DNA from: Candidatus Woesearchaeota archaeon | Lineage (GTDB): Archaea > Nanobdellota > Nanobdellia > Woesearchaeales > JAWBMQ01 | Direction: 5' to 3' | NCBI GenBank assembly: GCA_038825875.1 | Contig: JAWBOS010000006.1 | Span: forward strand, 1 to 50,940 | DNA: 50,940 nucleotides | Program-made: the position numbers | Part shown: in pieces, positions 24,001 to 30,000 of the stretch | Position numbering within the stretch: position 1 is the first letter of the stretch | Layout: the number at the start of each line of letters is the position of its first letter

Positions 24001-27000
24001 TCAAGTTCTGTAAGAAAGTCATATTCCCAATATGACAAATCATTTAATTTTGGTTGTTTTGTTATGTTTTGAGCATTTATAGGTTTTCCAAATACCTTAG
24101 CAAATCCTTCATTTAAGCCAGATTTAGCAATTCTTAGAAAAAAGTTTTCTTTTTCAGGCAATATTGCTTCGTAAAATAAATTCTCCTTATTGTTCTTTTT
24201 AAATTTTAGGTATATATTTTTGTATATTGAATCTGGAAGTAAGAATGCACAAACAGCATATATGTATGCTTTTAATAAAAGCTCTACTAATTTTTCTTTA
24301 TTGTCTTCACTTAGAATCTGTCTTTCGAATTCTTCAATCTTTTTCATATTAAACATTTCATATAGCTTTCCAGATTCATATAATTCCTTAAACTTTTTTA
24401 ATAATTCTCTCTCATCTTTAAGAAAAATAGTATTTTTGTCAAAGTAGATTTGTGCATTTATTCCCAATTCATTAAAAAAATCTTCCAAGGAACCTTTTAT
24501 TAGTTCAATTTCTGGATAGGTTGTTGTTTTTGTTGTTATTTTTTTACCTGTATCGTCTTTTAAGTAAAGTGATATTAACTCTATCATAATTTGCAATTAC
24601 ATAGATTTCTGTTTTTTTATGGTTTTCTATTTATTTTGGATCTTCATCTGAATCCCAGTCTAGGTATCTACCGCAATCACTGTAGTGTTCATGATAGACT
24701 CCACCAGATCCGAGATCTGCATAGGATTCTGTATATGATGTATCTCCATATGCTAACCCATCTTTTTCATTTTTTATTTCAAACTGTGGCGTATACATTT
24801 CCATCATCCTCTGAATCATCATCAAAAGATGAACGATATTTATCGAAAATATCATAACTTTTTTGGTTGGAAATGTACTTATTGTAATTTTCAAGAAGTT
24901 TATTTACAAAATCATTAAAGTTTAATTCCTTCTTGTTGTAAATTTTGTGAAAGAATGTTTTATTTATGTTGTTATAATCATTTGAGTAGCATACGACATA
25001 ATTAGATAACTCAGGATAAATAAACTTATAGTATATTCCTATGAATTGTCCAAATGGCCAACTTAATTTTCTTCCTTTTGGTTTATCTTTTAATAACAAA
25101 AAATTAAGATCAGTTAATACTATATCAAATTTCTTTTTTTTCAACTCCTTAAATTCTTCAAGGCTTTTTATATGATTTACATTCACATACGGTATTTTTT
25201 TGAATTCATAAACAAGCGGATTGTAGTATATCTTTGAATCTTCAATATATAACACTCTAATCTTTGAAGCCCAATAATCTTTCATTAAGAAAAGTATGAA
25301 ATTTTTCTTTAAATGCATTACCTTAAGGAAGCTAGTTCAAAATTTTTATATTCTGATTTTCCTTAATACTTTTTAGTACTATAAGGGTTTCTGTTTTATC
25401 TATTTCAGGTATTTCTCTTAAAGTTTTTGTTATGAATTCACCTAAGCTTTTTACATCTTTTTCTACAATTTTCAAAAGTATATCCCACTGACCTGCAATG
25501 ATATGTATTTCAAGAATTTGATTGTACTTTTTCAATTTTTCAGCAAGCTCTTCTTGAGAAAGAACAGATTTCTTATAACTTACTAGCACAAATCCAATTA
25601 CATTGTAACCTATCTTTTCTCTTGAAACAATTGCAGAATACTTTTCAATAATCCCTTCATTTTCAAGTTTTTTTATTCTATTGAAAACAGAACTTGGTTT
25701 CATTGATAATCTTTTTGCTATTTTTCTTATGCTTAATCTTCCTTCTTCTTCTAGCAAATTTAACAATTCCAAAGTCTTTTTATCAAAACTTAATTTGCTA
25801 TTTGTACTATTTCTTTTCATTATTTCACTTATAATTGAAACATTGTTTCATATTTAAATATTTTCAATGAATTTTTTTGTAAAATGTCTTAGAATTTTTG
25901 AAAAACCTTTATAAAATAATTGAAATCGAGAGATACAACATGAGGTGATTAATTTGAAAGAAAACGCTTTATTTGAAGATGATGGATTGTCTTTTTTAAC
26001 ACATGTTCGAGAAGTTTCCAAGATTATTCCTATCCAAAGTACAATCTTAAAAGAGATTGTAGATTTTTTTCAGGAAAAAGGTTTTCATCAATTAATGCCA
26101 GTAATTTTATCAACAGTCACTGATCCATTAGCCCCAGATCCAAGTGCAAAGATAAAGAAGGTAGGAGAAATAGAAGCATATGGTCAAAGATTAAAATTAA
26201 CTCAGAGCATGATATGTCATAAGCAAGCAGCATTGATTTCAGGTTTAAAAAAGATATTTATTATTTCACCAAACATAAGATTGGAAGATGAAATTAGAAG
26301 AGAAACAGGAAAACATTTATTTGAATTTTCTCAAGTAGATTTTGAGATAGCAAATGGAAAGATGCAAGATGTATTTGAATTAATGGAGGAATTTTTAGTT
26401 AGAGTCACAACAAAGGTAAAAGAAAAGCACTCAGATATACTTGAGGAATTAGGTAGAGATCTAAGAATTCCAAAAACGCCTTTCAGAAGATATACAACAA
26501 AAGAGTTATATGAAAAATATGGAGAATCTTGGGAGGATTTGGTTTCTAAGGATTCAACAGATCCTGTTTGGGTTTTGGATCATAAGAGAGAGTTCTATGA
26601 TAAGGAAGATCCAGCTAGACCAGGACATTATTTGAATTATGATCTTATTTATCCAGAAGGATTTGGAGAAGCATTGAGTGGCGGAGAAAGAGAAATTGAT
26701 TATGCTATAATTGAAAGAAAATTAAAAGAAAGGCCAGATATTGTTCAACAATTCTCGACTTTTTTTGAGTTATCAAGGAGAGGGTTATTAATTCCTAGTG
26801 CAGGTGCAGGTTTTGGTTTTGAAAGGTTGTTGAGATTTTTGACAGGTAAAAGGCATATAAGAGACGTTCAATTTTTTCCACGAGTCCCAGGAGAAAAGGT
26901 TTTTATGTAAAATCCCTGCCCCCGGACTCGAACCGGGAACCTGTCGGTATCGGCTGATCGTAACTCATTTTTTGCAATGTGCAACATCGTTACGACATCT

Positions 27001-30000
27001 ACAGCCGACCGCTCTACCAATTGAGCTAGGCAGGGATTATTATAATAAAAAGATGAAACCCGATTTTATAAATTTTACTCTCTTTTTATCTTTTAACCAT
27101 CAAAAATTCTCATAGAAAAAGTCTTCAGTCTTCAAGTTCCATCTCACTTTCTGCATTAAATACTCTCTAAAAAAAGATAATGAAAGCAAAAAGAAGCTAA
27201 CAAGTTATTAAAGTATAAGTTATTTTTTTGTTACTGTTATTTTATCATTTTGTAGCAGAACCACCAATCAAAGCATTCTAACTCTTTTGTTTCTACTTTT
27301 TTCATTCTTTCTTCCTTTTCTCTTATGCTACTAGCTGGAGGAATTATTACTTTATCTCCGATTAACTCATTATTTGGCCAGTTATGGGGCATTGCTACTT
27401 TATTTGCATCAGCCACTTGGAAAGCTTTTAACATTCTTAAGATTTCATCGATATTTCTTCCAACTTCTTGTGGATAATAAAGCATAGCTCTTAATATTCC
27501 ATTAGGATCAATTATGAACACAGCTCTAACGGTATTTGTGCCTTTTCCTTCATGTAACATTCCGTAGAGCCTGGCAATATTTCCCTGATCGTCTGCAATT
27601 ATAGGAAATTTTATTTCAATTCCTAATTTTTCCTTAATCCATTCGACCCATTTTATATGGCTAAATACTTGATCAATACTTAATCCTATTAATTCAGTAT
27701 TTAATTTTTTGAATTCTTCATATCTTTTTTGGAATCCTACAAATTCTGTTGTACAAACAGGAGTGAAGTCTGCAGGATGGCTAAATAGCACAACCCATTT
27801 TCCTTCATAGTCTTTTGGAAAGTTTATGATTCCGTGTGTTGTTTTTGCTGTGAATTCAGGTGCCTTTTTTCCCAATACCGGAATCCAGTTATCTTCACAA
27901 CCACACATACATTCGTTTACATTTTGATTTTTTTCATTTTCCATATTTTTCACCTCGATCGATATTTGCAATCATCACATAATCCAAAGAACAAAAGGGA
28001 ATATGAAAAATAATTTTTGTTAGTATTCAAATAGGAATCCAAAACCTCACAAAGATTTTTTTCATAGATATCGATTATTTTGTTGCAATTTGTGCAAATG
28101 AAGTGGACATGTTTTTCCTCGATATAATCATAAAAGGATGTATTGTTTACTTGGATTTTTACTATTTCTTGTTCTTTAACTAGTTTATTCAGTATTCTAT
28201 ATACAGTAGCAATTGTTATGCTTGGGATCTCTTTTTTCACATCTTCGTATATTTTTTCAGCAGTTGGATGGTTTTTATTTTTCTTAAGATATTCGAGCAC
28301 TTTTATTTTTTGAATGGTGTTTTTCATTTTGTATAGGAATTTTATAATTGAAAATAATTATTAATTGAAAATAATTATTATTTATAAATCTTATGAATCC
28401 TCAAAAGAAATCATTTTTAAACCACAAAATATACAATCTACTATGGCCATAATAAAACAAAGTGAAGAAGACTTTATAGTGAAAGAATTATATGGAGACT
28501 TTAAAATTGAGAGAATTAAGAGTGAATATGCCTACTTTATTCTAATGAAAAAAGGATTAACAACAACAGAGGCAATAGAGCGAATCTCTTCAAAATTGAG
28601 AATAGATGCAAAAGATATTGGATTTGCAGGAAATAAAGACAAAAAGGCATTAACGTTTCAACTGATCTCAATTCCTACATTCTTTATAAAAGATGAAACT
28701 CTTTCTGAGATTGATGAAAACGTATCCTTGGAGTTTTTTGGATATTCAAAAGAGCCCATAAAAATAGGTGACTTAAAAGGAAATTTGTTTGAAATAATTG
28801 TAAGAGATTGCAAAGTAAAATTGCCGTCAAAAGTAGAAAATTTTCTATTACCAAACTATTTTGATGATCAAAGATTTAGTTTAAATAATATAGTTATTGG
28901 GGAATCAATTGTAAAGAATGATTTTAGGTATGCAATAACAAATATTCTAAAATATTCATTTCCTGATGCAGAAGAAAAATTTGGATTTTGGAGAGATTTT
29001 GATATTAATAAAGCAGATCATATAAGCAGAGTTATTTTAGAACATCTTTTTCAATACCCAAAAGATCTAGTAGGAGCTATAAGAAAAATTCCAGTGCATA
29101 TTTCTATGATGTATATTCATGCCTATCAATCCTTCCTATTTAATGAAATTCTAAATATCTTTTCAGATACATATTTCAAAAAGAAATACAAGATAAAGAT
29201 AATGAACAGAGAGTATTGGTGTGGTGATGAATTAATCAAATATCTTGATAGAGTTTATATTCCTCTAATTGGTTTTGCAACAGAGATTGAGAAGTACTCT
29301 TTATATGACATAGGAAGCATTGTTTTAGAACTAATGGCTAAACATGAGATTACTTTTAGAGATTTTGTAATACACTCTTATCCATTATTAAGTACTACAG
29401 GAACTGAAAGGAAAGCATATCTTTTTGTTGACATTGAGATAGAAAAAGTGGGAAAATCAGATTATAAGCTAATGTTTTCTTTGCCATCTGGAAGTTATGG
29501 AACAATTTTGGTAAAATCTCTTCTTGCTAAGATGGGTGAAGATGTAATAATAGAATCATAATTTAAAGTTTTTTCTTGAGATTTTCAATCTTTTCAAGAT
29601 AGAATTTTTTCATTGCTCCATCTGGCAATGACATTACAAGTTCTTCGTATTGTTTAATTTTTTGTGCTATAGGATTTAAGGTTTCATTTGAAATTTTTTC
29701 TTTTTTAGCATTCTTCTTTTTTGTATCTCTTTTTTTAGACAATTTTTTATTTGCTTTTCCACTAATTCTACTCTTTTTTTCTTTTCTTGATTTAGGTTTA
29801 TTCACATCTTTTTTCAGTTCTTTTATTTCATTTGTATTTTCACTAAAAATTTCATCATGATGTTTTTTTAACAAATAGATCAGTCCTTCTTTTTCAAGAA
29901 TTTCTTTTATAAGATGCTCATGTTTTTTTACATACTCTTTAAGCTCATCAATTTCCTTTTTTTCAGATTTTACATTTTTATCTAATTCATTCATTTTCTT

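What a model noticed while it worked through the whole genome (the two positions that open the first line are those of the whole stretch)
26913..27035. tRNA-Tyr intron is a K-turn H/ACA-like guide aimed at its own U35
The 50-nt intron of tRNA-Tyr(GUA) (minus strand) folds as stem - K-turn (GA...AUGA) - hairpin, followed at once by CAGCCG, antisense to C29-G34 of the same tRNA, which leaves U35 as the unpaired base at the stem foot: the geometry of a Pyrobaculum-type single-strand pseudouridylation guide. It is conserved across Nanobdellota and is predicted to guide Psi35 of its own tRNA.
Evidence so far: 25 of 30 Nanobdellota tRNA-Tyr loci examined have K-turn + stem + >=5/6-bp antisense hexamer, with 25 different stem sequences. 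On 23 aligned introns ATGA and AG are invariant; the 6-bp stem is 84% paired with 53 compensatory cells, covariation 0.84 vs 0.21 shuffled, 0/500, and <=0.21 when slid. The conserved CAGCYG is not just the splice helix: a 13-nt intron (L260) has only the canonical BHB register, and G028 (L280) has guide and BHB strand as separate elements. Near-identical in G114. Cbf5, Nop10, L7Ae are encoded. No Rfam family but tRNA. Known Psi35 guides are free-standing sRNAs (PMC2651775, passages, call 96); searches 93, 94, 210 found no intron-borne one.
(Added by a program. Inside this text positions count along the whole contig: contig position 1 is position 1 of the stretch shown here. "Call 12" and the like, gene names such as g00115 and contig names such as C1 are that model's own, and its searches are not shown. 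The text may have been shortened before it was handed on; [...] marks where a part breaks off. The agent that wrote the report below was given it as the finding of a first reader that could run no searches.)

Follow-up and report, generated by a model that had tools for sequence, protein, structure and literature searches.

The report
Self-guiding pseudouridine intron in archaeal tRNA-Tyr
The intron of this archaeon's tyrosine tRNA gene encodes a conserved kinked hairpin whose tail is complementary to the tRNA's own anticodon arm, and it likely acts as a built-in guide that has the enzyme Cbf5 turn the middle anticodon base (U35) into pseudouridine before the intron is cut out.

Summary
Confirmed and extended. 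The 50-nt tRNA-Tyr(GUA) intron (26998-26949, minus strand) encodes an 8-bp stem, a GA/AUGA kink-turn, an apical hairpin and CAGCCG(AU), antisense to exon 27-34, leaving U35 at the stem foot. In 155 related loci, 127 of 146 long introns have K-turn plus stem; 116 of these 127 have at least 5/6 antisense pairs exactly 8 nt after the box (shuffles 16/7300). This gives the 10-layer GA stem of archaeal H/ACA guides. Splicing does not explain it: one base breaks the splice helix but pairs as guide (105/117), and 20 loci keep the two elements apart. New: 48 relatives also form a covarying 5' pocket duplex leaving exactly U35-A36 unpaired (47/48, 46/46); the window's own intron lacks it. The element recurs in Asgard and Thermoproteota genomes. 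Against: no ACA box at n+15, Gar1 not found, intact-looking TruD in most genomes, no RNA data. Best reading: an intron-borne, probably cis-acting atypical H/ACA guide for Psi35; function untested. No paper found describing it; the scan noted the same element earlier in five other genomes.

The parts
26913..27035 (-). tRNA-Tyr(GUA) gene with one intron at 37/38
   Evidence: Rfam RF00005 53.1 bits; ARAGORN with introns
26999..27009 (-). 5' exon nt 27-37; predicted target U35 = 27001; nt 29-34 (27007-27002) pair with the guide
   Evidence: sequence, fold, coordinates
26949..26998 (-). 50-nt intron, short-linker class (2 nt before the stem, no 5' pocket duplex)
26989..26996 (-). 5' strand of the 8-bp upper stem (P2 / GA stem)
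   Evidence: covariation in relatives
26987..26988 (-). GA of the K-turn, non-bulged strand
26972..26984 (-). apical hairpin (C-stem side of the K-turn), variable among relatives
   Evidence: inner length 17-29 nt in relatives
26965..26969 (-). K-turn bulge (L1 A, L2 A, L3 U) and GA; closing pair U-A
   Evidence: L1 purine 112/127, L2 A 125/127, closing pair 120/127
26957..26964 (-). 3' strand of the upper stem: the constant 8 nt between the box and the guide
   Evidence: offset profile
26949..26956 (-). predicted 3' guide CAGCCG (26956-26951) plus AU, antisense to exon 27-34; 26954-26951 doubles as the relaxed bulge-helix-bulge strand (3 of 4 pairs)
26942..26944 (-). exon nt 42-44, ACA, 12 nt from the stem foot; not at the canonical distance, probably just tRNA sequence
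28365..29561 (+). TruD/Pus7 homolog, the rival enzyme for Psi35 (motif IIIa Lys and catalytic Asp present; KK instead of RH/KR after the Asp)

Best explanation
The intron encodes a kink-turn stem followed by a sequence complementary to the tRNA's own anticodon arm, and it likely works as an atypical (no lower stem, no ACA) H/ACA guide that directs Cbf5 to make pseudouridine at U35 of its own precursor, probably in cis and before splicing. Steps: (1) shown by sequence and covariation: K-turn, 8-layer stem, antisense element at a fixed distance, and in many relatives a second short duplex after U35-A36; (2) predicted by folding: the pre-tRNA first adopts a 'guide' fold in which the intron pairs with nt 27/29-34 in place of the anticodon stem; (3) inferred from known H/ACA biochemistry: L7Ae binds the K-turn, Cbf5-Nop10 binds the stem and the guide duplex, U35 sits 10 layers below the distal G.A pair and is isomerised; (4) inferred: the RNA then refolds into anticodon stem plus relaxed bulge-helix-bulge, using the same intron bases, and is spliced. 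One turnover per molecule would make Gar1 dispensable (inference).
For: Fixed geometry: 127 of 146 introns of 40-150 nt have GA...RTGA with >=5/6 stem, found blind to the exon; 116 of 127 have >=5/6 pairs to 29-34 at offset 8, 0 at 7 and 3 at 9; 65 of 68 with one locus per family; 16 of 7300 shuffles. 8 nt + 2 G.A = 10 layers, the published GA-stem length (PMC4652768, PMC7075261, passages). True K-turn: closing pair 120/127 with CG, TA, GC types, 0/5000 permutations. Not splicing: where guide and splice strand overlap, i-4 is a pyrimidine in 105 of 117 (pairs G30, breaks U33; unpaired in 39 of 40 rows); i-7 is A in 117 of 117 although its splice-fold partner i2 is not U in 45; 20 loci in 9 families carry a separate splice strand and 16 of them still have >=5/6 guide pairs at offset 8 or 9; two loci in different families change G30 to C together with the guide base (L124, L127). 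5' pocket duplex: in 48 long-linker introns (26 families) G37 pairs with the last base before the stem in 47, the next pair holds in 46 of 46 with five pair types, 0/10000 permutations, other registers fail at pair 1 (0-5 of 46-48); this leaves exactly the 'UN' of typical guides. Repeated in sets fetched later: 26 of 28 and 12 of 16 long-linker hits. Precedent: sR148 guides with a single 3' guide and a 6-bp duplex; ACA-less guides work in vivo; two of them modify their own 5' region, less dependent on Gar1 (PMC11077068 sections 19, 22, 24). Cbf5 found in 80 of 80 genomes, 73 over cut-off; TruD not found in 8 of 80, 7 of which carry K-turn introns (G018, G141, five of family f104; 91-98% complete). 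The guide fold is the MFE, -57.0 vs -46.6 kcal/mol for a hand-built splice fold.
Against: No experiment and no RNA evidence. No lower stem; ANA lies 12 nt from the stem foot in 75 of 127 (exon sequence), at 14 nt in 4. The window's own intron has no 5' duplex, like 79 of 127. Gar1 not found in this genome nor in 19 of 19 same-class genomes, while the same model rings in 25 of 33 other archaea; atypical guides needed Gar1 in vitro for external substrates (PMC11077068 passage). TruD is found in 72 of 80 genomes and nearly all inspected copies keep the motif IIIa basic residue and catalytic Asp, so the Sulfolobales argument of a defective Pus7 does not apply. Several introns keep the pairings but lose a standard K-turn (AA for GA in 6 Asgard and 4 Thermoproteota hits; AUGU for AUGA in L381, L384-L392; no K-turn in L344, L405-L408), which hints that the pairing can matter without L7Ae. 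Five f65 loci with C30 keep only 4 guide pairs; L076 does not compensate its exon change; the five TruD-less f104 introns have weak stems (3-4 of 6) and 3-5 of 6 guide pairs. In two of four long-linker folds the MFE is the splice helix, not the guide fold. Kin are not independent and the 8-nt rule was first read.
Confidence: 0.72

Rival explanations
1. The intron opens the anticodon arm and presents U35 to the stand-alone TruD/Pus7, as in intron-dependent Psi35 of eukaryotes; the K-turn only stabilises this fold through L7Ae.
For: TruD with intact IIIa Lys and catalytic Asp in this window and in most relatives; Pab aPus7 makes Psi35 (PMC2651775); K-turn-less or K-turn-degenerate introns keep the same antisense register.
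Against: Does not explain the fixed 10-layer distance or the exact two-base UN gap, both Cbf5-RNP rules; seven K-turn-intron genomes show no TruD; Pab aPus7 does not need an intron.
Confidence: 0.12
2. The K-turn hairpin is an L7Ae-bound switch that delays or regulates splicing or stabilises the excised intron; no base is modified.
For: Guide fold and splice fold exclude each other; the 5' mini-hairpin would bury the 5' splice site; Gar1 not found.
Against: A switch does not need a U at a fixed distance from the kink nor exactly two free bases; 16 of 20 loci keep the antisense element after the splice strand has moved away.
Confidence: 0.08
3. It is a guide, but the excised (circular) intron acts in trans on other targets, for example rRNA or tRNA-Asn U35, and the self-pairing is secondary.
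For: The intron guide has 6-pair matches (G.U allowed) before three LSU uridines and tRNA-Asn U35 in this genome (only the 3' part of the LSU was scanned); the tRNA-Trp C/D intron acts in trans (PMC11408192 passage).
Against: The best match is its own U35 (8 pairs); the 5' duplex covaries with the intron's own first base and is closed by 3-6 nt loops, several GNRA. Action in trans on another pre-tRNA-Tyr copy stays possible and is counted under the best explanation.
Confidence: 0.04
4. Ordinary relaxed bulge-helix-bulge intron; the hexamer is the splice helix and the rest is neutral hairpin.
For: In 117 of 141 loci the hexamer overlaps the splice strand; 3 of its bases pair in both registers.
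Against: Invariant K-turn bases, covarying stem, fixed spacing, splice-breaking pyrimidine, separated class and 5' duplex; short 13-28 nt introns lack all of it.
Confidence: 0.03

Closest known systems
Atypical (H/ACA-like) guide RNAs of Sulfolobus islandicus (sR109, sR136, sR148, sR563; PMC11077068) and Pyrobaculum (Bernick 2012, known to me only through citing papers)
   Same: One hairpin with K-turn, no lower stem, no ACA; single 3' guide (sR148, 6 bp) or bipartite guide; self-modification of the RNA's own 5' part shown for sR109 and sR563.
   Different: Those are free-standing RNAs aimed at rRNA; here the module lies in a tRNA intron, the substrate is the flanking exon, and the guide doubles as splice strand.
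Psi35 guides Sso1, Sto1, Sac1, Mse2, Ape7 and sR115 (PMC2651775, PMC11077068)
   Same: Same predicted target, U35 of pre-tRNA-Tyr(GUA); pairing runs across exon and intron; K-turn above the pocket.
   Different: Classic free-standing H/ACA RNAs with lower stem and ACA at 14 nt, tied to a defective Pus7; here intron-borne, no ACA rule, TruD mostly intact.
[quoted passage not shown]
   Same: A tRNA intron carries the guide for modifying its own anticodon loop; this genome has such C/D-like modules in its Trp, Met and Leu(CAA) introns.
   Different: Other RNP (fibrillarin-Nop5), other chemistry (2'-O-methyl), guide lies 5' of a D box; shown to act in trans.
Intron-dependent Psi35 of eukaryotic tRNA-Tyr by Pus7 (PMC2651775 discussion)
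   Same: Intron at 37/38 of tRNA-Tyr linked to Psi35.
   Different: Protein-only enzyme; the intron is a substrate feature with no K-turn or guide role.

Membership tests
Classic archaeal box H/ACA sRNA | K-turn or K-loop with tandem G.A pairs in the upper stem | tested here: met
   (sequence and covariation; L7Ae binding not tested)
Classic archaeal box H/ACA sRNA | GA stem of 9-10 layers between pocket and distal G.A | tested here: met
   8 nt + 2 G.A; offset 8 in 116 of 127; rule
Classic archaeal box H/ACA sRNA | Lower stem P1 | tested here: not met
   no intron-internal lower stem in the fold or alignment
Classic archaeal box H/ACA sRNA | ACA/ANA box 14-16 nt from the pocket | tested here: not met
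   ANA at 14, 15, 16 nt in 4, 0, 2 of 127; at 12 nt in 75, inside the exon
Atypical H/ACA-like guide (sR148 / Pyrobaculum type) | K-turn hairpin without lower stem and ACA, with a 3' guide of about 5-8 nt directly after the stem | tested here: met
Atypical H/ACA-like guide (sR148 / Pyrobaculum type) | Target U and next base unpaired at the stem foot (5' guide optional) | tested here: met
   U35-A36 free; exact UN gap in 47 of 48 long-linker relatives; in the window the free loop is 5 nt, with no 5' duplex
Atypical H/ACA-like guide (sR148 / Pyrobaculum type) | Core proteins Cbf5, Nop10, L7Ae, Gar1 encoded | tested here: inconclusive
   first three found; Gar1 not found by two models; a divergent copy cannot be excluded
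Atypical H/ACA-like guide (sR148 / Pyrobaculum type) | Binds Cbf5 and directs pseudouridylation of the target | not testable with these tools
   needs reconstitution or Psi mapping
Atypical H/ACA-like guide (sR148 / Pyrobaculum type) | Expressed as a stable separate sRNA | tested here: inconclusive
   no reads of the organism in the runs laid; by anatomy it is part of a pre-tRNA
Intron-encoded box C/D guide (tRNA-Trp type) | Antisense element directly 5' of a D box, target at D+5 | tested here: not met
   antisense lies 8 nt 3' of AUGA; the D+5 geometry is seen instead in the Trp, Met and Leu introns
Archaeal BHB tRNA intron at 37/38 | 4-bp helix between nt 32-35 and i-6..i-3, flanked by 3-nt bulges | tested here: inconclusive
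   3 of 4 pairs (U33 unpaired in 39 of 40 rows): relaxed motif; splicing itself not observed

The most novel reading that the evidence does not exclude
An ancient, pan-archaeal class of self-guiding tRNA introns: the tRNA-Tyr intron builds a complete pseudouridylation pocket around its own U35-A36 in cis, works with a Gar1-less, single-turnover Cbf5-Nop10-L7Ae complex in DPANN, then refolds for splicing. Its presence in Asgard archaea would make it the likely forerunner of intron-dependent Psi35 in eukaryotes and a reason why this intron has been kept.
Probability: 0.45. Interest if true: 0.9.

Novelty: new variant of a known kind. Interest (0 to 1): 0.78.

Why it matters
It would be the first H/ACA-type guide inside a tRNA intron, the counterpart of the C/D guide in the tRNA-Trp intron, and a natural case of guide, substrate and splice signal in one RNA with two exclusive folds. 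It offers a function for a tRNA intron kept across DPANN, Asgard and Thermoproteota lineages, and makes two old questions testable with a 120-nt transcript and three or four proteins: why tRNA introns persist, and where the eukaryotic link between the tRNA-Tyr intron and Psi35 came from. It also points to a minimal H/ACA machine without ACA box and perhaps without Gar1.

Tried and rejected
RNA evidence: no RNA holder listed; four same-study RNA runs gave 0 reads on 25200-29700 (3-5% of three runs read), which is no test. ACA box supplied by exon 42-44: ACA in the window, but 12 nt from the foot and ACA in only 4 of 127; not accepted. Defective-TruD explanation as in Sulfolobales: rejected, motifs mostly intact. 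5' guide made by the circular intron junction: i1-i2 of short linkers are not complementary in a conserved way (composition, judged by eye). h' splice helix as the reason for invariant A at i-7: both pairs possible in only 30 of 117. C/D reading: geometry does not fit. Loss of the PUA domain in f104 Cbf5: the proteins are shorter (288-305 aa) but keep a C-terminal region; not claimed. Family f63 (0 of 36 genomes matched the exon pattern): a looser pattern found nothing in 5, and none of 20 longer tRNA loci fetched from 3 genomes was tRNA-Tyr; its state is unknown. One search used a structure string misplaced by two columns; one search is the corrected count. Small ORFs over the tRNA and a sigma-70 scan gave nothing of use. 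Bernick 2012 is not held in the library, so its figures were not seen.
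Full report
Observation. The window holds a tRNA-Tyr(GUA) gene at 27035-26913 on the minus strand. The ARAGORN tool without introns misses it; run with introns it reports a 50-nt intron, which exon pairing places at 37/38, 26998-26949. The predicted fold pairs exon nt 27-34 with the last 8 intron bases, leaves U35-A36-G37 and two intron bases as a loop, and stacks an 8-bp stem, GA...AUGA and a 5-bp hairpin on top. 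The intron alone folds only weakly better than shuffles (z -1.7); the signal comes from intron plus exon (z -4.3) and from conservation.

Sample. I collected tRNA-Tyr loci by similarity in 61 relatives (30 loci) and by an exon-only pattern in 301 genomes of the phylum (186 matched; 43 matches were not listed; 30 came as loci, 100 more were fetched). Of 160 loci, one gave no parse and one gave two; five duplicates were dropped, leaving 155 in 82 families; three intron ends were set by hand. The pattern misses some lineages, notably f63 (0 of 36). Classes: 146 introns of 40-150 nt, 4 short, 2 intronless, 3 long or unparsed.

K-turn and stem. Searching each intron for GA...RTGA with a stem, blind to the exon, gives 127 of 146 with at least 5 of 6 pairs, 103 different stems. 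The base pair closing the bulge holds in 120 of 127 with CG, TA and GC types; L1 is a purine in 112, L2 is A in 125. Pairs further out in the C-stem are weak (75 and 60 of 127). On 40 introns, one per family, aligned by MAFFT, stem plus guide helix are 96.7% paired with 110 double changes, covariation 0.63 against 0.20, 0/500, and fall to 0.06-0.12 when slid.

Guide register. A hexamer with at least 5/6 pairs to nt 29-34 starts exactly 8 nt after the box in 116 of 127; offsets 7 and 9 give 0 and 3, and a shifted self-similar register at offset 4 gives 33; shuffled introns pass both tests in 16 of 7300. [quoted passage not shown]

Is it only the splice helix? In 117 loci the hexamer ends 2 nt before the 3' splice site and overlaps the bulge-helix-bulge strand. 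There i-4 is a pyrimidine in 105: it pairs G30 in the guide fold and cannot pair U33 in the splice fold. i-7 is A in all 117; it pairs U33 as guide, while its splice-fold partner i2 is not U in 45 loci of 29 families. In 20 loci of 9 families a separate splice strand follows; all 20 have 3-4 splice pairs and 16 keep at least 5/6 guide pairs at offset 8 or 9 (12 at 8). L124 and L127 change exon G30 to C and the guide base to G, though that G also mends the splice helix; five f65 loci with C30 do not compensate.

A 5' pocket duplex. Introns differ in the number of bases before the stem: 79 have 4 or fewer (the window has 2), 48 have 5 or more. In the 48, G37 pairs with the last base before the stem in 47, and the first intron base pairs with the next in 46 of 46 that leave room, as AT 33, CG 5, TA 4, TG 2, GC 2 (0/10000 permutations; 25 of 25 with one per family); registers starting at 35, 36, i1 or i2 fail at the first pair. 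This leaves exactly U35-A36 unpaired between two duplexes at the foot of the stem, the 'UN' of typical guides. Loops are 3-6 nt, several GNRA, which favours a hairpin in cis. I saw this by eye in the same loci, so the count there is not a blind test; the sets below were fetched later and repeat it.

Range. A motif scan of a quarter of the GTDB contigs returned 121 loci: mostly records titled Woesearchaeota, Nanoarchaeota or Nanoarchaeia, many titled uncultured Methanosarcinales (label unverified), 9 Promethearchaeota/-aeia, 1 Hodarchaeota, and one each of Thermofilum, Thermoproteales, Geoarchaeota and Bathyarchaeota; 5 were non-tRNA chance matches in bacteria. Exon-only searches around the Promethearchaeota genome G330 and the Thermofilum genome G331 (all matches of the first and 70 of 73 of the second were fetched; one non-Tyr locus dropped) and one looser rule gave 136 of 154 (own phylum), 29 of 47 (one, L413, is a false hit) and 17 of 70, against 3-5% in shuffles; 26 of 28 and 12 of 16 long-linker hits have at least 2 bp of 5' duplex. 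Some Asgard copies have a K-loop; others have AA for GA. Many Thermoproteota have short or unrelated introns.

Proteins. Cbf5 with its catalytic motif, Nop10 and L7Ae are encoded; Cbf5 is found in 80 of 80 genomes. Gar1 is not found here nor in 19 same-class genomes, but in 25 of 33 others at E<=0.01. Atypical guides needed Gar1 for outside substrates, less so for self-modification (PMC11077068), and a Gar1-less complex works in single turnover (PMC6138745 section 9); a cis guide needs one turnover. That fit is inference. TruD is found in 72 of 80 and looks intact in nearly all copies read, so it may also make Psi35; seven genomes with K-turn introns show none, five of them one family with weak guides.

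Mechanism. Best reading: the pre-tRNA folds first into the guide form (-57.0 against -46.6 kcal/mol for a hand-built splice form; these energies ignore K-turn and protein effects, and two of four long-linker examples prefer the splice helix), L7Ae and Cbf5-Nop10 assemble, U35 becomes pseudouridine, and the RNA refolds for splicing. Structure and register are shown by comparison; binding, catalysis and order are inferred. Trans action on another precursor copy is not excluded, as for the tRNA-Trp C/D intron.

Known systems. It works like the atypical guides of S. islandicus, above all sR148 (single 3' guide, 6 bp) and the self-modifying sR109 and sR563 (PMC11077068, sections 19, 22, 24 read). 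It has the target of Sso1/sR115 (PMC2651775: abstract, sections 14 and 20, first parts of 11 and 21) and the location of intron-borne C/D guides (PMC11408192, PMC4090602, PMC3491384; passages). It is not a classic H/ACA RNA: lower stem and ACA rule fail. Literature searches listed no intron-borne pseudouridylation guide; PMC4652768 has no occurrence of 'intron'; a 2026 preprint on Asgard tRNA introns has none of guide, pseudourid, K-turn or Tyr in its main text (its supplements are closed and could bear on this); PMC7991803 and PMC3608112 were seen as passages. Bernick 2012 was not available, and subscription journals are not covered. The scan's own notes describe the same element in five other genomes, three of them called Asgard; I read them after my counts, they agree, and they are not independent proof.

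Verdict. A real, deeply conserved RNA element; most likely an intron-borne atypical H/ACA guide for Psi35 of its own tRNA (0.72). New variant of a known kind; interest 0.78.

Noticed in passing
G000 C1:28790-28899 (Trp), C2:34913-35030 (Met), C4:4245-4376 (Leu CAA): Three other tRNA introns of this genome carry a compact D-box, 3 nt, C-box module right after a 6-7 nt antisense to their own anticodon loop; the D+5 rule points to C34 in all three. The Leu(CAA) case was not seen in the passages I read. Similar modules in f63 loci L201, L203, L213.
   Followed up: partly
G000 C3:32040-32087 (+): Free-standing K-turn hairpin with the same 8-nt geometry; one of 10 hits of a genome scan; best candidate target SSU rRNA position 1424 with 6+3 pairs. 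Possible atypical H/ACA RNA.
   Followed up: partly
L057, L059, probably L041: tRNA-Tyr anticodon interrupted by long inserts; L057 and L059 show motifs I recall from group I introns (label recalled, not tested).
   Followed up: no
L021: Apparent second 20-nt intron between nt 36 and 37, in front of an otherwise normal guide intron.
   Followed up: no
L344, L345, L405-L408 (phylum of G330); L374-L378, L400-L403, L423-L427 (phylum of G331): tRNA-Tyr introns without K-turn: a hairpin, then an antisense starting in the same register at G34, in several extended to the D-arm or D-loop (read by eye).
   Followed up: no
L381, L384-L392: Full architecture with 4-5 bp 5' duplex and separate splice strand, but AUGU instead of AUGA in the K-turn.
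   Followed up: no
19 same-class genomes, 80 genomes: Gar1 not found in any, although Cbf5 is near universal.
   Followed up: partly
family f104: G328, G269, G081, G145, G273: No TruD found, divergent shorter Cbf5, and long tRNA-Tyr introns with a weakened guide.
   Followed up: partly
L002 (G001:C3): Two identical intron-bearing tRNA-Tyr copies 1.26 kb apart; may be an assembly repeat.
   Followed up: no
L018, L031, L060, L106 and several Asgard-titled loci: Extra inserts in the T-arm of tRNA-Tyr, likely second introns.
   Followed up: no
L270, L321: Records titled as bacteria carry this archaeal tRNA-Tyr intron, probably misbinned contigs.
   Followed up: no
window 25945-28327: The tRNA gene ends 3 nt from the stop of a convergent asparagine synthetase A gene; upstream on the same strand lie peroxiredoxin and a PerR/Fur regulator. 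No link to the intron seen.
   Followed up: no
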